In this document: piece after piece, positions 10,304-59,605 of the stretch | Numbering within the stretch: the stretch's first letter is position 1 | Layout of the letters: each line of letters begins with the position of its first letter | Assembly: GCA_025929365.1 (NCBI GenBank) | Contig: JAICMG010000001.1 | Location: forward strand, 1,214-65,213 | Direction of reading: 5' to 3' | Source of the DNA: Frankiaceae bacterium | Lineage (GTDB): Bacteria > Actinomycetota > Actinomycetes > JAFAQI01 | Length of the DNA: 64,000 nt | Program-made: the position numbers and the translations under genes | The notes under the pieces: model-generated | What the model saw: the letters and a program-made list of their open reading frames with translations, nothing else | Database searches by the model: none | Told to the model about the DNA's origin: nothing

Positions 10304-10394
10304 CGATTGGTCGCCGGGTCCCCGGGCGGGGTGAACCGGTACCTGTAGCTCCAGTGTGCCTGAACCAGGCAAGCGGCCGGGTTTGTTCCCGGGT

Positions 10395-12095
10395 CTAGGC
10401 CTCGGGGCCGGGGCTGGTCTTCTGCACCTGCAGCAGGAAGTCGTAGTTGCTGTGCGTCTCCTTGAGCTTGGACAGCAGCAGCTCCATTGCCTGTTGCGAG
10501 TCGAGCGCGTGCAGCACGCGACGGAGCTTCCAGATGATCTGCAGCTCCTCGGGGGAGAGGAGGATCTCCTCCTTGCGGGTGCCGGAGGGGTCGATGTCGA
10601 CGGCCGGGAAGATCCGCTTGTCCGCGAGCTTGCGGTCGAGCTTCAGCTCCATGTTCCCGGTGCCCTTGAACTCCTCGAAGATCACCGTGTCCATGGTCGA
10701 GCCGGTCTCCACGAGCGCGGTGGCGAGGATCGTGAGCGACCCGCCGTTCTCGATGTTGCGTGCGGCCCCGAGGAATCGCTTGGGTGGGTACAGCGCAGTC
10801 GAGTCAACACCGCCGGACAGGATCCGGCCGCTTGCGGGAGCGGCGAGGTTGTAGGCGCGGCCGAGGCGGGTGATCGAGTCGAGTAGGACGACAACGTCAT
10901 GACCGAGCTCGACGAGACGCTTCGCGCGTTCGATCGACAGCTCCGCAACGCTGGTGTGGTCGGTCGGCGGGCGGTCGAAGGTGGAGGCAATGACCTCACC
11001 CTTCACCGACCGCTGCATGTCGGTGACCTCTTCCGGCCGCTCATCGACGAGGACGACCATCAGGTGGCACTCGGGGTTGTTCGTGGTGATCGCGTTCGCG
11101 ATCGCCTGCAGCACCATCGTCTTGCCGGCCTTCGGCGGCGAGACGATCAACCCGCGCTGGCCCTTGCCGAGCGGCGCGACGAGGTCGATGACGCGTGTCG
11201 TGTAGACGTTCGGCTCGGTCTCCAGGCGCAGCCGCTCCTGCGGGTACAGCGGGATCAGCTTGTTGAAGTCCGGACGCTTCTTGGCCTCTTCGGGGTCGAT
11301 GCCGTTGACGGTGTCGAGCCGAACGAGTGCGTTGAACTTCTCGCGCCGCTCCCCCTCGCGCGGCTGGCGGATCATGCCGGTGACGGCGTCGCCCTTCCGC
11401 AACCCGTATCGGCGTACCTGTGACAGCGAGACGTAGACATCGTCGGGGCTGGACAGGTAGCCACTCGTGCGCACGAACGCGTAGTTGTCGAGGATGTCGA
11501 CGATTCCACCGACCGGGACGAGTACGTCGTCCTCGGCGATCACCGGCTCGGCTTCGTTGCCGAAGCGCTCGCGGCCGCCACGGCCACGGTTGCGCTCGCG
11601 GAAGCGGCCGCGACGCGAGCGGTTGGAACCGAACTCGTCGTCGCGCTCGGCGCCACCGTCCTGCCGGTTGCCCTGACCGCCGCGTTGCTGGCCGTCACGG
11701 TTCGGGTTGTTCTGGTTCTGGTTGTTCTGCCGGTTCTGGCCGCCGCCCTGCCGGTTGCCCTGCTGGCGGTCGTCGCGCGGCGCGCGCTCGTCGGAGCCGC
11801 GCTGCTCGCGGGACGCGGAGTCCTCGCGCGGCGCGCGGTCGTCCAACGGGGCGGATTCGGCCGCGGCCGGTCCGCCGGAACGCGAACCGCCGCTCTGCTT
11901 CGCCTGGATCGCCTCGATCAGCTCGCCCTTGCGCATCTTCGCGGTGCCGGTGATGCCCAGGTCGCCGGCGAGCGTCTGAAGCTCGGGCAGCAGCATCCCG
12001 GACAGCCCCTTGCGGCGGCCGTTGCCGGATCCGTTGGCACTGGCCGACCCGCTGGTCGACGTGGTGGCGGTCGGGGCGTCGTGAGTTTCGCTCAC
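10395..12095 (-). CDS. rho: transcription termination factor Rho with an actinobacterial RG/Q-rich N-terminal insertion
   Basis: 566 aa. C-terminal RecA-like core carries Walker A (PPKAGKT), Q-loop and R-loop. N-terminal ~200 aa is low-complexity Arg/Gly/Gln/Asn-rich. GTG start at 12095 is preceded by the AAGGAAGGAA ribosome-binding site. Confidence 0.96.
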
Positions 12096-12416
12096 CTAAC
12101 GTTCCTTCCTTACTTCTTTTCGGTGCAACCGGATCAACCGGGTGAACACCGGAACCCGCCTATGCGGCGGGGGCTTGTGGAGCCGATCCCGGGCTGGTTC
12201 TCGCGCATGCGCCCCGCGGTGGGGGCGGGGAAGCTGCGGATCAAAGGACGGCAATGAGACTTTGTCAGGCTCGCTACCGGGATCGTTGACTCGCTGCAGA
12301 GCGGAAACCTCGCCCCGATGGGGCGGCTATCGCTTGTACAGCGTAGACGTCGCCGTCCACTCGTGCCAACAAAGGTCCGCACAGCGCTATTCCCGCGTGT
12401 CGCCCCGCCCCTCTCC

Positions 12417-12500
12417 CCGAAGTAGCACACAAAGTCCCTCCAGGCGCGCCCAGCCACGCTCAGGACGCGTGTCGCCGGGCCACTTTGTGTGCTACTTCGG
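12417..12500. repeat. palindromic element copy 1: perfect 19-bp inverted repeat CCGAAGTAGCACACAAAGT / ACTTTGTGTGCTACTTCGG separated by a 46-nt loop
   Basis: Arms at 12417-12435 and 12482-12500 are exact reverse complements. The loop is about 70% identical to the loop of copy 2. The element overlaps the 3' end and stop codon of the DUF559 ORF. Confidence 0.85.
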
Positions 12501-13368
12501 ACTGGGCGGCGGCCAGGTTGTCTCCGACGAGCTGTACGACGTAGTCCGGATCGTCGACGACGTCGTGCCAGCTGACAACCGCCACCCGCCAACCGGCGCG
12601 GACCAGTGCACTCCACCGACGGCGATCACGAATGAACGAGTCGCGGCTGGCGTGGTGTTGGAAGCCATCGCACTCGAGCACGACACGAGCTTCGGGCCAC
12701 GCGAAGTCCACTCGCCCGATCCACCGGCCTCCCGGCGTACGAATCGTGTATTGCGTGCACGGAGCCGGAAGCCCGGCGTCGGCGAGCAACACCCTGGTCA
12801 TCGATTCGAAGACCGAGCCCGACGACGGGTCTGCCAGGTTGGCCGTGCGAATCGCAGCCGGCCGCCTGGGTCCAGCAAGAGATTCGGCGTAGGACGACAG
12901 TGAGGACACAGTCGTAAGTCCGAGACGTAGATATCCGTCGGCGACAGCTACCGCTACCTGCAGCGGTGCGCTCCGCGCAATATCGGCGACCGTGCGGTCA
13001 GGTGCTGTGACGCGAACGCCTCGCACCAAGCGCACGTCATCGGGTTGCAGAACCGCGCGGTGAATCTGCACCCCGACGGCCGAGTCGGACCGCCGACCTC
13101 TATTGCGAGGGGCGGTGACATGCAGATGGTCCACGGGACCGGGGAGATCGACCCCGCACCAAGCAGCCGCGGACTGATGGCTCACGACAACCCTCATGGA
13201 GCGCGTGACGCCCCGCGGATCGGGAAGGCCAAGCACCTCCCCGGTCGTGTACCAGCCCCGCCATAGGCGGGTGACGACGCCCAACGCGACGAGCGCAGTG
13301 AGCTCAGGGCCGGTGACGCCGGTCGCGAGGATCTGGTTGCGGTGAATGAGCTTGTCAGGTTCGAACAC
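12460..13368 (-). CDS. DUF559-family protein (Vsr/very-short-patch-repair-like endonuclease fold), likely horizontally acquired
   Basis: N-terminal region (…ILATGVTGPELTALVALGVVTRLWRGWYTT…) and C-terminus (…VVLECDGFQHHASRDSFIRDRRRWSALVRAGWRVAVVSWHDVV…) are typical of DUF559 proteins. Codon usage is strikingly AT3-rich for this genome (GTA, GCT, GGA, TAT, CTA, CGT, CTT, ACT, TCA within 20 consecutive codons). Start chosen at the GTG at 13368. The C-terminal 13 aa read through the hairpin repeat. Confidence 0.7.
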   Translation of the reverse strand: MFEPDKLIHRNQILATGVTGPELTALVALGVVTRLWRGWYTTGEVLGLPDPRGVTRSMRVVVSHQSAAAWCGVDLPGPVDHLHVTAPRNRGRRSDSAVGVQIHRAVLQPDDVRLVRGVRVTAPDRTVADIARSAPLQVAVAVADGYLRLGLTTVSSLSSYAESLAGPRRPAAIRTANLADPSSGSVFESMTRVLLADAGLPAPCTQYTIRTPGGRWIGRVDFAWPEARVVLECDGFQHHASRDSFIRDRRRWSALVRAGWRVAVVSWHDVVDDPDYVVQLVGDNLAAAQSEVAHKVARRHAS

Positions 13369-13458
13369 TCGCAGGCGGTCGGACGTTCGGCGCGGCGCCA
13401 CCACACGGTCGTCCTGCGCTGTGGACGGACGCGTCGCCTGACAATGTTGTGGATTCCG

Positions 13459-13542
13459 CCGAAGTAGCACACAAAGTGGCTTCGGCCGGGCCCGCCCACG
13501 CTCACGAGGTGCCTGCGCGGCGGACTTTGTGTGCTACTTCGA
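13459..13542. repeat. palindromic element copy 2: same 18/19-bp stem with a 46-nt loop, ~90 nt upstream of the DUF559 start
   Basis: Arms at 13459-13477 and 13524-13541 are identical in sequence to copy 1. Both copies are followed by (G/A)ACTGGG. The loop shares the GCCC(A/G)(G/C)CCACGCTCA(G/C)GA(C/G)G core with copy 1. Confidence 0.85.
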
Positions 13543-13555
13543 ACTGGGGGTGGGG

Positions 13556-14479
13556 TTAGAGGGGGGCGAGGTGGGCGCCCTTCCGGTCGACGTCGAGAGG
13601 TAGCGCGCTCCACCCGCGGCGGGCGAACGTCACGGCCCGGTCACGGCTGTCGGTCGTGGTGAGCGCGAGCACGCTCGGGCCCGCGCCGGAGACGACGGCG
13701 GGAATTCCCGCGTCGCGAAGTTCGGCGACCAGCGCGGCCGTCTTCGGCATCGCCTCCGCGCGGTACGGCTGATGCAGCCTGTCCTCGGTCGCGCCGAGGA
13801 GGTCGTCGGGATGCGAACGAAGCGCTTCGACGAGCAGCGCGGCGCGAGCGGCGTTGGCCACCGCGTCGGCGTGCGGCACCGACTCAGGCAGCAGCTTGCG
13901 CGCGGCCTTCGTCGACGAGCTCGATCCGGGGACGAAGGCAACCGGTGCAAGGGCGTCCGACACCGGCACCTTGATCGCGCGCGCACCGGACTCGTCGTTC
14001 CACGCGATCGTCAAGCCACCCAGCACGCAAGCAGCAACGTTGTCGGGATGCCCTTCCAGCTCGGCGGCGTGCGCGAGTACGGCCGCGTCATCCATGCGCT
14101 CGCTGCCGCCGACGACGAGGCCGCGGGCGGCGACGACACCCGCCACAATCGCGGCGGCCGACGAGCCGAGACCGCGGCCGTGCGGAATCCGGTTCGCGCA
14201 GACGACCTCCAAACCGGCCGGGGCACCACCCAGCACCTTGAACGTCGCGCGCATCGACTTGACGACGAGGTGACGCGCGTTGCGCGGGACGCTCGCCGCA
14301 CCCATCCCTGCGACATCGACGGTCAGCCCCGCTTCGTCGGTGACTCGCACGACGACGTCGTCGTACAGCTCTAGAGCGAGCCCCAGCGCGTCGAACCCCG
14401 GGCCGAGGTTGGCACTCGTCGCGGGCACGCGCACCCGCACCGCCGCAGCCTTGAACGTTGGCCCAGAACGACGCGCCAC
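13556..14479 (-). CDS. thrB: homoserine kinase
   Basis: GHMP kinase with ATSANLGPGFDALGLAL and the PHGRGLGSSAA motif. GTG start at 14479 overlaps the thrC TAG stop by 1 nt (TAGTG). The upstream 38 aa of the ORF are not ThrB-like. Confidence 0.9.
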   Translation of the reverse strand: MARRSGPTFKAAAVRVRVPATSANLGPGFDALGLALELYDDVVVRVTDEAGLTVDVAGMGAASVPRNARHLVVKSMRATFKVLGGAPAGLEVVCANRIPHGRGLGSSAAAIVAGVVAARGLVVGGSERMDDAAVLAHAAELEGHPDNVAACVLGGLTIAWNDESGARAIKVPVSDALAPVAFVPGSSSSTKAARKLLPESVPHADAVANAARAALLVEALRSHPDDLLGATEDRLHQPYRAEAMPKTAALVAELRDAGIPAVVSGAGPSVLALTTTDSRDRAVTFARRGWSALPLDVDRKGAHLAPL

Positions 14480-23837: not shown

Positions 23838-23881
23838 TCGTCCGTCGAAGACGGCTGGCGCGCTCTCGGCTCACTTGCTTG

Positions 23882-23953
23882 TGCCCCCGGGGCGATTCGA
23901 ACGCCCGCACCCGCCTCCGGAGGGCGGTGCTCTATCCCCTGAGCTACGGGGGC
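23882..23953 (-). tRNA. tRNA-Arg (anticodon CCG)
   Basis: Reverse complement GCCCCCGTAGCTCAGGGGATAGAGCACCGCCCTCCGGAGGCGGGTGCGGGCGTTCGAATCGCCCCGGGGGCA folds into a cloverleaf. Perfect 7-bp acceptor stem, GTTCGAAT T-loop, anticodon loop CU-CCG-GA. No encoded CCA. Confidence 0.9.
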
Positions 23954-59418: not shown

Positions 59419-59477
59419 CCAAAGTCCATCCGGCGCAAGAGCACATGAACCATGCGAGATCCGGCGCTCTCGATCGC

Positions 59478-59605
59478 ATGTGACATAGGTGTCGTGATAG
59501 GCCGCCCCTATGTCACATGCGTGTCGTGATTCACCGCCCCTATGTCACATGCGTGTCGCGATTCACGACACCGATGTCACATACGTGCCGCTACACGGCA
59601 ACGGA
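59478..59605. repeat. array of four phased 32-bp degenerate direct repeats, each beginning ATGT(C/G)ACAT
   Basis: Unit starts at 59478, 59510, 59542 and 59574, an exact 32-bp period. Units 1 and 2 are 28/32 identical (ATGTCACATGCGTGTCG(T/C)GATTCAC…). Unit 2 contains a GTGTCG-N7-CGACAC hairpin. Lies in the convergent gap between a hydrolase gene and the PQQ-propeller gene. AT content is raised. Confidence 0.8.

What the first reader, a model, noticed from the sequence alone, without database searches (positions are those of the whole stretch)
12396..13545. Foreign DUF559 (Vsr-like nuclease fold) gene bracketed by two copies of an ~85-bp perfect-stem hairpin element, inserted at the conserved thrB-rho junction
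thrB and rho are adjacent or nearly so in Mycobacterium (Rv1296-Rv1297) and many other Actinobacteria. Here they are separated by about 1.45 kb holding one ORF of the DUF559 family, which has a restriction-endonuclease/Vsr-like fold. Its codon usage is plainly non-native: third positions are frequently A or T (GTA, GCT, GGA, TAT, CTA, CTT, ACT, TCA in a single 20-codon run), whereas flanking core genes are almost all G/C3. The ORF is bounded by two same-orientation copies of an element with identical 18-19-bp inverted repeats (CCGAAGTAGCACACAAAGT … ACTTTGTGTGCTACTTCG) around 46-nt loops that are only about 70% identical. Identical stems with drifting loops suggest selection or gene conversion acting on the stem rather than a recent tandem duplication. 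Copy 2 sits about 90 nt upstream of the start. Copy 1 overlaps the last 13 codons and the stop, so the protein C-terminus is encoded by the element. The whole arrangement looks like a small selfish or mobile cassette, or a target-hairpin duplication, that delivered a nuclease-fold gene into a housekeeping operon junction. I do not recognise this hairpin-flanked architecture for DUF559 genes.
Basis: partly seen in the sequence, partly recalled or inferred. Interest (0 to 1): 0.78.

Follow-up and report, generated by a model that had tools for sequence, protein, structure and literature searches.

The report
Nuclease gene bracketed by cognate palindromes
A gene for a DNA-binding nuclease sits between thrB and rho with a copy of the same ~82-base palindromic hairpin on each side; relatives of this gene are bracketed the same way by their own matching palindromes, and in this bacterial clade the hairpin has also spread to dozens of gene ends, which suggests an undescribed kind of nuclease-linked mobile repeat.

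Summary
Two ~82-nt hairpins (perfect 18-nt arms) bracket a minus-strand ORF that is an AbiEi-type DNA-binding module fused to a Vsr/DUF559 nuclease.

- **Not a recent foreign insertion.** thrC-thrB-[hairpin-gene-hairpin]-rho recurs in three other species. One relative has a solo hairpin at this site, and another has only a decayed remnant.
- **The hairpin is a dispersed repeat.** About 100 exact-core copies were found in about 10 related soil MAGs. More than 90% are solo. They sit tightly against gene 3' ends and often supply the TAG stop.
- **The bracketing is not coincidental.**
  - Every close homologue examined, at five or more unrelated sites, has both hairpins.
  - In a broader set of homologues (30-73% identity), 74% share a ≥12-nt word between their up- and downstream flanks, against 6% in controls.
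  - These flank words diverge in step with the protein.
- **Subtypes follow the genome, not the site.** Solo hairpins match the resident gene's hairpin subtype, even at sites orthologous between species.

Best reading: the nuclease recognises its own palindromes and drives their copying and homogenisation, and occasionally its own relocation. This resembles REPIN/RAYT or a free-standing homing endonuclease, but uses a different enzyme. Nuclease activity and mechanism are inferred, not shown. I found no prior description.

The parts
12418..12499 (.). Downstream hairpin element (82 nt). It has 18-nt perfect arms and a 46-nt loop. The extended imperfect palindrome runs 12405-12512.
   Evidence: DNA fold z -6.2 and -6.7
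13460..13541 (.). Upstream hairpin element (82 nt) with the same 18-nt arms. It lies 14 nt after the thrB stop and 91 nt before the nuclease gene start.
12460..13368 (-). AbiEi-DUF559 nuclease gene, 302 aa from GTG at 13368. The database annotation (P0001) starts at GTG 13404, giving 314 aa. The longest possible ORF starts at 13470.
12877..13365 (-). N-terminal AbiEi-like module: winged-helix DNA-binding domain plus the AbiEi C-terminal domain (P0001 residues ~14-176).
   Evidence: PADLOC AbiEi E 1e-15; Foldseek 6Y8Q E 4e-6, 1ZEL E 5e-4; model pLDDT 89
12505..12759 (-). C-terminal Vsr/DUF559-type PD-(D/E)XK nuclease domain (P0001 residues ~216-300). It carries the motif VDFAWP..LECDG..H..RDRRR; of its putative catalytic residues D233, E244 and H251 are invariant and D246 nearly so.
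   Evidence: 3r3p E 2e-4; 3R3P TM 0.80, 3HRL TM 0.76
12460..12500 (-). Hairpin-encoded C-terminal tail (EVAHKVARRHAS plus stop). Among the 24 aligned homologues only P0003 (the L086 gene) has the same hairpin-encoded tail; most end ..LAAA just before the hairpin and a few have unrelated short tails.
13369..13459 (-). Leader between the upstream hairpin and the start codon. It holds two conserved TCCAC motifs (about 13450-13456 and 13420-13426) that align across homologues sitting at unrelated sites.
13556..14440 (-). thrB, the upstream neighbour. Its TAA stop lies 14 nt before the hairpin.
10395..12095 (-). rho, the downstream neighbour. Its conserved leader (12096-12417) begins directly after the downstream hairpin, as it does after the solo hairpin or remnant in relatives that lack the gene.

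Best explanation
This is one member of a large, apparently undescribed class of palindrome-bracketed nuclease genes. The single protein joins a sequence-specific AbiEi-type winged-helix module to a Vsr/EDxHD-type nuclease domain, and the gene is bracketed on both sides by its own cognate palindromic element.

Shown:
1. The unit [hairpin - ~90-170-nt leader - gene - hairpin] recurs with fixed geometry at unrelated chromosomal sites.
2. The bracketing sequence co-diverges with the protein across the family.
3. In this Mycobacteriales/Frankiaceae clade the hairpin also exists as tens of solo copies per genome. These sit against gene 3' ends and often supply the TAG stop.
4. Solo copies carry the subtype of the hairpins that bracket the resident nuclease gene, even at sites orthologous between species.
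5. The thrB-rho site occurs as hairpin-gene-hairpin, solo hairpin, or remnant, and the gene tree disagrees with the species tree.

Inferred:
1. The protein, probably as a dimer, binds the two inverted arms through the AbiEi module.
2. It nicks or cuts the element, in duplex or extruded form.
3. Host recombination then repairs the break from another hairpin copy, primed by the conserved arms. This usually overwrites the hairpin, which would produce concerted evolution and flip loops in either orientation.
4. Occasionally repair copies through hairpin-gene-hairpin and relocates the gene.
5. Recombination between the two bracketing hairpins deletes the gene (leaving a solo) or inverts it.

Functionally this would be a REPIN/RAYT-like partnership run by a homing-endonuclease-type enzyme rather than by a transposase. 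At thrB-rho the element is tolerated because it lies between two genes and leaves the rho leader intact.
For: - **Architecture at unrelated sites.** Both hairpins are present at thrB-rho (window, L086, L040, L105), at the acyltransferase/163-aa site (L002, L190), at sodX-ABC (L003), at FMO-permease (L191, L192) and at L106. Hairpin-to-hairpin spacing is 1031-1052 nt in the full-length copies. For L067 only the downstream hairpin is recoverable, because the contig ends at the gene start.
- **Junctions are conserved.** The leader and the gene-to-hairpin junction align across different sites, while homology stops outside the hairpins.
- **Family-wide bracketing.** In 61 loci at 30-73% identity, up- and downstream flanks share a ≥12-nt word in 74%, against 6% in mismatched controls. 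The cognate words lie only at about -100 to -240 and 0 to +140 relative to the gene. Sharing of flank words between loci follows protein identity: 98% at ≥60% identity and about 12% below 45%. The cores differ by subfamily.
- **Dispersed solos.** The scan returned 94 stretches holding about 103 hairpins. Only 4 of the 94 pattern-scan stretches hold the gene.
- **Subtype match.** Solo subtype equals gene-bracketing subtype in 4 of 4 MAGs where both are known.
- **Turnover at fixed sites.** Hairpins at orthologous sites in four species carry species-specific subtypes. Their interiors are no more alike (0.60) than random between-genome pairs (0.59), whereas within-genome pairs average 0.67.
- **Recent conversion between bracketing hairpins.** Interiors are identical but inverted in L190, and 0.89 identical in direct orientation in L003. 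L188 has 65-nt flanking repeats at 94% identity.
- **Mobility.** The site exists in occupied, solo and remnant states. The DUF559 and ThrBC trees are incongruent. The gene is inverted at the same site in L002 versus L190. L106 holds a 5'-truncated copy between intact hairpins.
- **No other candidate enzyme.** The nuclease gene is the only recurrent non-syntenic neighbour of hairpins. No RAYT-like hit was found in 1.1 Mb of loci.
- **Protein.** The N-terminal half matches AbiEi and the C-terminal domain matches I-Bth0305I and 3HRL, and the catalytic motif is conserved: D233, E244 and H251 invariant, D246 nearly so.
- **Literature context.** AbiEi proteins bind inverted repeats (PMC7319586). I-Bth0305I is a homodimeric, multidomain enzyme with a ~60-bp footprint on a pseudopalindromic site (PMC3239194).
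Against: - There is no biochemical evidence that this protein binds or cuts the hairpin. No activity is known for any AbiEi-DUF559 fusion.
- A hydrolytic nuclease cannot itself carry out strand transfer, so spread to new sites is unexplained. The arms offer only 12-20 bp of homology for recombination.
- Both bracketing hairpins stay intact. A classical homing endonuclease gene, by contrast, disrupts its target.
- In 5 of 9 MAGs with hairpins, no cognate gene was recovered. The MAGs are incomplete, and the exact-core scan misses bracketing hairpins that carry a mismatch, so this is uninformative rather than contrary.
- The within- versus between-genome identity difference is modest (0.67 against 0.59).
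- The trees are neighbour-joining on few taxa.
- Some sharing of flank words among 60-80% identical loci may reflect synteny.
- One distant homologue, in Phytohabitans (L186), has no flanking repeat.
- All data come from MAGs or metagenome contigs.
Confidence: 0.5

Rival explanations
1. The hairpins are an independent REP-like host element, for example a 3'-end RNA stabiliser, a termination or insulation signal, or a topological site, propagated by some other process. The nuclease gene is a separate selfish element that merely targets such hairpins for insertion, as some insertion sequences target REPs. It plays no part in making or homogenising them.
For: More than 90% of hairpins are solo and sit at gene 3' ends: 138 gene 3' ends face a hairpin against 58 gene 5' ends, and 45 hairpins lie between convergent genes against 6 between divergent genes. 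Solos are retained at orthologous sites across species. A solo hairpin occupies the 'empty' thrB-rho site in L103. The outer flanks of the left and right bracketing hairpins are complementary, as if one target hairpin had been split or duplicated.
Against: It does not explain why solo hairpins genome-wide carry the subtype of the resident nuclease gene's hairpins. It does not explain why orthologous-site hairpins switch subtype between species. It does not explain why distant subfamilies with no known solo population are still bracketed by their own cognate palindromes. No other candidate mobilising enzyme was found near hairpins.
Confidence: 0.25
2. The palindromes are simply operators. The AbiEi-like module binds them to autoregulate the gene and perhaps to loop DNA between upstream and downstream sites. 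The protein would then be a host defence or repair nuclease, and the dispersed hairpins would be functionally unrelated look-alikes or extra binding sites.
For: AbiEi and Rv2827c autoregulate by binding inverted repeats in their promoters (PMC7319586). The N-terminal half is a clear AbiEi homologue. In the ~38-40% identity subfamily, upstream 18-bp perfect palindromes form arrays with 42-nt spacing, which looks like an operator array.
Against: It does not explain the obligatory downstream copy at the stop codon. It does not explain the movement of the whole hairpin-gene-hairpin unit between sites and its inversion. It does not explain the ~100 solo copies at other genes' 3' ends, or the presence/absence polymorphism at this site. 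No AbiEii toxin partner is adjacent. Autoregulation is compatible with the best explanation and may well be an additional role.
Confidence: 0.12
3. The unit is a conventional transposon whose ends are the hairpins, with the solos as MITE-like derivatives. It would be moved by a transposase encoded elsewhere, or by the DUF559 protein acting as an unconventional cut-and-paste enzyme together with host end-joining.
For: In L190 the two 81-nt elements are identical inverted repeats bracketing a single gene, the classic IS layout. In one genome the arms behave as imperfect 14-nt terminal inverted repeats of an asymmetric element with a conserved interior. L106 holds a truncated, non-autonomous-looking copy.
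Against: No DDE, HUH, serine or tyrosine recombinase lies inside or recurrently beside the elements. No target-site duplication could be recognised. Solos are single hairpins, not end-plus-end fusions of a longer element. The bracketing hairpins are direct in some loci and inverted in others. Hairpins persist at orthologous sites rather than scattering.
Confidence: 0.1
4. Coincidence: two copies of a common repeat happen to lie on either side of an ordinary gene.
For: The repeat is dispersed.
Against: The window has only these two copies in 64 kb. Eleven of twelve gene-bearing loci in the close subfamily (59-100% identity), at five or more distinct sites, have both hairpins at fixed distances, and the twelfth (L067) is cut by the contig end. 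The family-wide control was 74% against 6%.
Confidence: 0.02

Closest known systems
REPIN-RAYT systems / REPtrons and TIRtrons (PMC3116915, PMC3333891, PMC3733652)
   Same: A single gene is bracketed by copies of a palindromic repeat that also populates the genome in tens of extragenic copies, mostly at gene ends. Each genome has its own repeat subtype matching the copies beside the gene. Repeats persist at orthologous positions. The arm even contains a GTAG tetranucleotide.
   Different: The enzyme is not an IS200/IS605-type HUH Y1 transposase. It is an AbiEi winged-helix module fused to a hydrolytic Vsr/PD-(D/E)XK nuclease, so the chemistry (no covalent DNA intermediate) must differ. The host phylum is Actinobacteria. 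The gene changes site and orientation and its tree conflicts with the species tree, whereas RAYTs are described as mostly vertically inherited. The unit is one 81-93-nt element with 12-20-bp arms rather than pairs of 20-25-nt REPs.
EDxHD/Vsr-fold homing endonucleases (I-Bth0305I, PMC3239194) and free-standing homing endonuclease genes of phages
   Same: The nuclease domain is the closest solved relative by sequence profile and by fold. The layout is multidomain, with a DNA-binding part plus a C-terminal Vsr-like nuclease. The expected target is long and pseudopalindromic. The gene shows presence/absence polymorphism between conserved genes and an incongruent gene tree.
   Different: It is not in an intron or intein and not in a phage. 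Its DNA-binding module is AbiEi-like. The presumed target is duplicated and intact on both sides rather than disrupted. The target is a multicopy dispersed repeat rather than a unique site.
AbiEi antitoxins of type IV AbiE toxin-antitoxin systems (6Y8Q, Rv2827c/1ZEL; PMC7319586)
   Same: The N-terminal ~175 residues are homologous in sequence and fold. Inverted repeats lie upstream of the gene, as with AbiEi operators.
   Different: There is no AbiEii nucleotidyltransferase partner. A nuclease domain is fused instead. Repeats also lie downstream and are dispersed genome-wide.
Insertion sequences that target REP sequences, and MITE-flanked composite elements (from my own knowledge; not checked here)
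   Same: A protein-coding unit is associated with pre-existing palindromic repeats. A solo repeat is found at the unoccupied site.
   Different: No known class of transposase is present. The bracketing repeat co-diverges with the enclosed protein across the family, which is not expected for opportunistic targeting.

Membership tests
DUF559 / Vsr-like PD-(D/E)XK nucleases (PF04480) | Profile match above the curated threshold | tested here: met
   PF04480 scores 27.9 bits against a 20.6 cut-off. PF18741 (MTES_1575) scores 30.9, below its 38.2 cut-off.
DUF559 / Vsr-like PD-(D/E)XK nucleases (PF04480) | Vsr-type nuclease fold | tested here: met
   AlphaFold2 model with pLDDT 89. Foldseek gives 3R3P at target-normalised TM 0.79-0.80, rmsd 2.7 Å, and 3HRL at TM 0.76.
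DUF559 / Vsr-like PD-(D/E)XK nucleases (PF04480) | Conserved acidic and histidine catalytic residues | tested here: met
   D233, E244, G247, H251, D260, R261 and R263 are invariant and D246 nearly so across 24 homologues. Their role as catalytic residues is inferred by homology.
DUF559 / Vsr-like PD-(D/E)XK nucleases (PF04480) | Endonuclease activity | not testable with these tools
   Needs biochemistry.
AbiEi antitoxin (type IV toxin-antitoxin) | N-terminal winged-helix domain plus AbiEi C-terminal domain | tested here: met
   PADLOC AbiEi models, E 1e-15 to 1e-23 over residues ~14-176. Foldseek 6Y8Q E 4e-6 and 1ZEL E 5e-4.
AbiEi antitoxin (type IV toxin-antitoxin) | Adjacent AbiEii (DUF1814) toxin gene | tested here: not met
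   The neighbours are thrB and rho here and unrelated metabolic genes elsewhere.
REPIN-RAYT / REPtron | Palindromic extragenic repeat present in many copies per genome | tested here: met
   Up to 25 exact-core solo copies were found per MAG, which are lower bounds. They are extragenic and lie at gene 3' ends.
REPIN-RAYT / REPtron | Associated gene bracketed by the repeat | tested here: met
REPIN-RAYT / REPtron | Associated gene encodes an IS200/IS605-like HUH Y1 transposase | tested here: not met
   The protein is AbiEi plus a Vsr-like nuclease. No RAYT-like ORF was found in 1.1 Mb of hairpin loci, using a query recalled from memory.
REPIN-RAYT / REPtron | Single copy, vertically inherited | tested here: inconclusive
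   The site is the same in four species, but the gene tree is incongruent with the species tree and the gene sits at other sites in other genomes. Copy number per genome is unknown because the data are MAGs.
Homing endonuclease gene (EDxHD family / free-standing) | Nuclease domain homologous to a characterised homing endonuclease | tested here: met
   3r3p (I-Bth0305I) is the best PDB sequence-profile hit, E 2.3e-4. By fold it is the best match for the C-terminal nuclease domain.
Homing endonuclease gene (EDxHD family / free-standing) | Presence/absence polymorphism at one site among relatives, with a gene tree unlike the host tree | tested here: met
Homing endonuclease gene (EDxHD family / free-standing) | Insertion interrupts the recognition site, and the enzyme cleaves the empty allele | tested here: inconclusive
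   Intact hairpins lie on both sides and a solo hairpin occupies the empty site. Cleavage cannot be tested here.
Integron gene cassette (attC) | Integrase-linked array of diverse cassettes, each ending in an attC hairpin | tested here: not met
   Only one gene type is ever enclosed, and there are no arrays. Other hairpin pairs simply flank ordinary genes such as a GNAT acetyltransferase or an MFS transporter.
Intrinsic (Rho-independent) terminator | Short GC-rich stem followed by a T-run | tested here: not met
   No terminator-like site was found in 12000-13700. The stems are 18-31 bp with 46-nt loops and no T tract.
Any Rfam RNA family | Covariance-model match | tested here: not met
   No match covers either hairpin at E ≤ 1 or at the gathering threshold.

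The most novel reading that the evidence does not exclude
AbiEi-DUF559 proteins are the engines of a previously unrecognised type of bacterial genetic element. Each would be a site-specific nuclease that cuts its own cognate palindromes wherever they occur, so that host recombinational repair copies palindromes between sites, and occasionally the nuclease gene with them. This would be replication of REPIN-like repeats by gene conversion, without any transposase. It would assign a function to thousands of 'DUF559' genes in Actinobacteria (7,445 clusters at 50% identity with E ≤ 1e-30). It would also explain how dispersed palindromes at gene ends evolve in concert.
Probability: 0.35. Interest if true: 0.9.

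Novelty: new variant of a known kind. Interest (0 to 1): 0.78.

Why it matters
DUF559 and AbiEi-domain proteins are very common in Actinobacteria and have no assigned role. If the gene and its palindromes form a functional pair, three things follow:
1. A large orphan family gains a concrete, testable function.
2. There would be a second, mechanistically independent route to REP/REPIN-like genome-wide repeats, driven by a nuclease plus host repair instead of an HUH transposase.
3. It would explain concerted evolution of palindromes that sit on stop codons and between convergent genes, where they probably affect mRNA 3' ends.

The enzymes would also be naturally diversified, long-site, palindrome-specific nucleases whose targets can be read directly from their own flanks.

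Tried and rejected
- **Known RNA family.** Rfam found nothing on the hairpins. The only nearby hit is a weak ASdes match in the rho leader, E 0.46 and below threshold.
- **Canonical terminator or sigma-70 promoter.** None was found.
- **Integron-like cassettes.** Other close hairpin pairs (L092, L009, L022, L027) enclose ordinary genes: a GNAT acetyltransferase, an aminotransferase, an MFS transporter and a hydrolase. They are not recurrent cargo.
- **A hidden transposase.** Clustering all ORFs next to hairpins gave only the nuclease gene plus syntenic housekeeping genes. A tblastn search with an E. coli RAYT sequence recalled from memory found nothing better than E 0.58.
- **Phage or plasmid origin.** There was no hairpin and no homologue in the viral contigs, and no homologue in PLSDB plasmids at E ≤ 1e-10.
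- **Orientation bias relative to transcription, expected for a strand-specific RNA element.** None was seen: 20 same-sense against 17 antisense in tandem gene contexts.
- **Target-site duplication.** None was recognisable. The bases outside the core continue the palindrome, C-rich on the left and G-rich on the right.
- **Simple vertical inheritance of the thrB-rho copy.** The DUF559 tree conflicts with the ThrB+ThrC tree.
- **Literature.** No paper in the library links DUF559 or AbiEi-nuclease fusions to flanking palindromes.
Full report

Yes. Window 12418-12499 and 13460-13541 are two copies of an 82-nt element. Each has perfect 18-nt inverted arms (CGAAGTAGCACACAAAGT / ACTTTGTGTGCTACTTCG) around a 46-nt loop. 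The 18-mer occurs nowhere else in the 64 kb, even with up to 3 mismatches, and none of 100 shuffles produced a match. Both strands fold far better than shuffles as single-stranded DNA, with z-scores of -4.6 to -6.7.

Between the two copies lies a minus-strand ORF, 12460-13470 at its longest. Alignment with homologues places the start at GTG 13368, giving 302 aa, 91 nt from the upstream hairpin. The last 13 codons and the stop lie inside the downstream hairpin.

Three details need correcting:
- The loops are 59% identical, not about 70%.
- The relative orientation of the two copies cannot be decided: interior identity is 0.74 direct and 0.76 inverted.
- Codon usage deviates only moderately: GC3 is 0.72 against 0.81-0.91 in the neighbours.

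**2. The protein**

Pfam DUF559 is matched above threshold. PADLOC models identify residues ~14-176 as a full AbiEi antitoxin-like module, E 1e-15.

An AlphaFold2 model (pLDDT 89) matches two known structures:
- The N-terminal half matches S. agalactiae AbiEi (6Y8Q) and M. tuberculosis Rv2827c (1ZEL).
- The C-terminal ~100 residues match the catalytic domain of the homing endonuclease I-Bth0305I (3R3P, TM 0.80, rmsd 2.7 Å) and the Neisseria DUF559 protein 3HRL.

3R3P is also the best sequence-profile hit in the PDB. The motif VDFAWP..LECDG..H..RDRRR is invariant or nearly so across 24 homologues.

The hairpin-encoded tail (EVAHKVARRHAS) is shared only with the closest same-site relative. Other homologues end ..LAAA, with a stop 2-4 nt before the hairpin or at the hairpin's own TAG.

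No AbiEii toxin gene is adjacent at any locus. The family is large: 7,445 clusters at 50% identity have E ≤ 1e-30.

**3. The hairpin is a dispersed repeat**

I scanned one genome per species for CGAAGTAGCACA-N45-75-TGTGCTACTTCG. The scan returned 94 stretches holding about 103 hairpins. All but one come from about 10 uncultured Mycobacteriales/Frankiaceae soil MAGs, with up to 25 solo copies in a single MAG. Lengths cluster at 81-82 and 91-93 nt. Only four of those stretches encode a homologue of the nuclease, so more than 90% of hairpins are solo.

Where the solos sit:
- 138 gene 3' ends face a hairpin, against 58 gene 5' ends.
- 45 hairpins lie between convergent genes and 6 between divergent genes.
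- 46 genes end exactly at the TAG inside the CGAAGTAG core, and only 4 read further in.
- A further 52 genes stop within 20 nt of the hairpin.

Other properties:
- The 12-nt core is flanked by covarying positions: -2 and +12 to +17 are paired far more often than in shuffles.
- The outer flanks are C-rich on the left and G-rich on the right.
- The loop carries an asymmetric motif (..CTGNGCTC..TGTCCGRTTCGAG..) and small internal stem-loops.
- Loop orientation is random with respect to transcription.
- The hairpins are not Rfam families and not canonical terminators.

**4. The bracketing is not a coincidence**

Close homologues (59-84% identity) occur at unrelated sites:
- between an acyltransferase gene and a 163-aa gene (L002, L190);
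- between sodX and an ABC transporter (L003);
- between a flavin monooxygenase and a permease (L191, L192);
- at L106 and L067.

Wherever both flanks are available, each has one hairpin about 90-180 nt upstream of the start and one at the stop. Hairpin-to-hairpin spacing is 1031-1052 nt. The leader, which holds two TCCAC motifs, and the gene-to-hairpin junction align across these sites. Homology ends outside the hairpins. The mobile unit is therefore hairpin-leader-gene-hairpin.

A metagenome scan with the protein alignment gave 80 more loci at 30-67% identity:
- In 61 loci with both flanks, the up- and downstream flanks share a ≥12-nt word in 74%, against 6% for mismatched flank pairs.
- The shared words lie only next to the gene.
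- The words differ between subfamilies: CGAAGTAGCACACAA; CGTTTCAGCACACAAC; TTCTGCACACAAA; CCGTTCTACCTACAACC; arrays of ACGTTATGCGCATAACGT; CGTGAGGTTCATCGGGGCGCCGA.
- Sharing of flank words between loci follows protein identity: 98% at ≥60% identity, 30% at 45-60%, and about 12% below that.

A cultured Blastococcus homologue has 65-nt flanking repeats at 94% identity. A Phytohabitans homologue has none.

**5. The thrB-rho site**

The arrangement thrC-thrB-[hairpin-gene-hairpin]-rho is also present in three other assemblies:

| Locus | Source | ThrB identity to window |
|---|---|---|
| L086 | Frankiaceae MAG | 90% |
| L105 | JGI contig | 91% |
| L040 | SMAG_U5565 | 84% |

Two relatives lack the gene at this site:
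- In MAG DASZXX (L103; ThrB 84%) the site holds one solo hairpin, while that genome's nuclease gene sits at sodX-ABC (L003).
- In DASZTV (L101; ThrB 86%) only a ~50-nt decayed hairpin remains at the thrB stop.

The rho leader resumes directly after the hairpin in every case.

The nuclease tree conflicts with the ThrB+ThrC tree. L105 is a close relative of the window species, yet its gene is closest to L040's (71%) and it has L040-type 92-nt CACAACTC hairpins. L086's gene is closest to L003's (75%), which sits at a different site. The site is therefore a recurrent landing or exchange point, not a single recent foreign insertion.

Three further observations show active recombination between the bracketing hairpins:
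- The gene is inverted at one and the same site in L002 versus L190.
- L190's two hairpins have identical interiors in inverted orientation, whereas L003's are 0.89 identical in direct orientation.
- L106 holds a copy that has lost codons 1-67 but sits between intact hairpins.

**6. Hairpin populations follow the resident gene**

In the four MAGs where both are known, solo hairpins have the arm subtype and length of the hairpins bracketing the gene:
- U5565: 23 of 26 arms are CACACAAC, 91-93 nt.
- CAZEAM: 20 of 26 arms are CACACAAA, mostly 82 nt.
- U6075 and U6196: the CACATG/CACATC type, 81 nt.

Four sets of orthologous intergenic sites each carry a hairpin in four species, and each hairpin has the species-specific subtype. 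Their interiors are no more alike (0.60) than random between-genome pairs (0.59). Within-genome pairs average 0.67. This is the signature of concerted evolution or in-place turnover.

**7. Mechanism**

The shown facts are the architecture, the co-divergence of gene and flanks, the mobility, and the coupling between solo and gene-bracketing subtypes.

The inferred steps, and how likely I think each is:
- **The AbiEi module binds the arms (likely).** AbiEi proteins bind inverted repeats (PMC7319586).
- **The Vsr-type domain nicks or cuts the element (plausible).** The motif is intact. The nearest characterised relative is a dimeric homing endonuclease with a ~60-bp footprint on a pseudopalindromic site (PMC3239194).
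- **Host repair copies sequence from another hairpin, primed by the conserved arms (speculative).** Because the arms are inverted repeats, priming can occur in either orientation. That would explain the random loop orientation and the mix of direct and inverted bracketing pairs.
- **Occasionally repair reads through hairpin-gene-hairpin and relocates the gene (speculative).**
- **Recombination between the bracketing hairpins deletes or inverts the gene (speculative).**

Open problems remain. It is unclear how hairpins reach new sites, whether 12-20-bp arms are enough for recombination, and why so many hairpins abut stop codons. The last could reflect selection for harmless insertions or a real role at mRNA 3' ends.

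**8. Comparison with known systems**

In behaviour the closest match is the REPIN-RAYT / REPtron-TIRtron class (PMC3116915, PMC3333891, PMC3733652). The defining HUH Y1 transposase is absent, so this is not a member of that class.

By enzyme ancestry it is closest to EDxHD/Vsr-fold homing endonucleases. It is not intron-borne or phage-borne, and its presumed target stays intact.

It is not an AbiE toxin-antitoxin system, because no toxin gene is present. It is not an integron cassette and not a terminator.

Full-text searches found no description of palindrome-bracketed DUF559 genes.

**9. Caveats**

- All sequences come from MAGs or metagenome contigs.
- Copy numbers are lower bounds from an exact 24-base pattern.
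- My gene calls use a crude GC3-based ORF picker.
- The trees are neighbour-joining on a few taxa.
- No activity has been demonstrated for any protein of this family.

Noticed in passing
L006-L099 (hairpin loci); window 13541-13558: The TAG inside the conserved CGAAGTAG core serves as the stop codon of the adjacent gene at 46 of 138 facing gene 3' ends, while only 4 genes read deeper into the hairpin. Many other stops are followed by a short C-rich spacer (CTAGCCCC..) before the hairpin. This suggests targeting of, or strong selection at, stop codons.
   Followed up: partly
L190:454-1575 versus L002:4830-5950: The nuclease gene lies in opposite orientations at the same intergenic site (acyltransferase / 163-178-aa gene) in two related genomes. 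In L190 the two bracketing 81-nt hairpins have identical interiors but are inverted, which would allow flip-flop inversion.
   Followed up: partly
L106:695-1636: A copy of the nuclease gene lacks the first ~67 codons (the winged helix) but still sits between two intact hairpins, with spacing 861 nt instead of about 1040. It is a possible decaying or non-autonomous copy.
   Followed up: partly
L128, L131, L132, L136, L148 (upstream -100 to -290 of the gene): In the ~38-40% identity subfamily the cognate site is an 18-bp perfect palindrome, ACGTTATGCGCATAACGT. It is repeated 3-4 times upstream at 42-nt spacing and 1-2 times downstream, a layout resembling an operator or iteron array.
   Followed up: no
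L101:4915-4975: At the thrB-rho junction of MAG DASZTV only a ~50-nt internally deleted hairpin remnant survives (..CTGTAGCA..TGTCCTGAGCGTG..GTGCTCCTTCGAAC). The thrB stop is the remnant's TAG.
   Followed up: partly
L063:1099-1187: There is a single 89-nt hairpin with the same 12-nt core, 22-bp perfect arms and an AT-rich loop in an Acidobacteria MAG, with no nuclease homologue nearby. A chance match is not excluded: for uniform random sequence about 0.1 such matches are expected in the scanned collection.
   Followed up: no
window 59475-59587: An intergenic array of about 3.4 copies of a 32-nt unit (ATGTCACATGCGTGTCGTGATACACCGCCCCT). The unit also forms 23-55-nt inverted repeats, so it looks like an operator or iteron. 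The adjacent genes were not identified.
   Followed up: no
window 12096-12417 (rho leader): A long leader is conserved between species (..CGGAATA..GACC.TTGTTGGCA..GCCGCCCCATCGGGGCGAGGTT.CCGCTCTGCAG..). It has a weak, sub-threshold Rfam ASdes match at 12122-12202 (19.9 bits, E 0.46). It may be a regulatory leader of rho.
   Followed up: no
window 10309-10345 and 23881-23953: An L31-Actinobacteria ribosomal protein leader (Rfam RF03158, 45 bits) lies upstream of rpmE, and there is a tRNA-Arg(CCG). Both are ordinary features.
   Followed up: no
window 11766-11843: An 18-nt imperfect tandem repeat lies within the 5' part of rho. It encodes the low-complexity Arg/Asp/Gly/Gln/Asn-rich stretch seen in the Rho translation; such N-terminal insertions are, from my own knowledge, typical of actinobacterial Rho.
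   Followed up: no
L092:3876-4648: Two nearly identical 92-93-nt hairpins lie 681 nt apart and flank a GNAT acetyltransferase gene. This shows that near-identical hairpin pairs can bracket ordinary genes, and it is possibly the result of recent conversion between neighbouring hairpins.
   Followed up: partly
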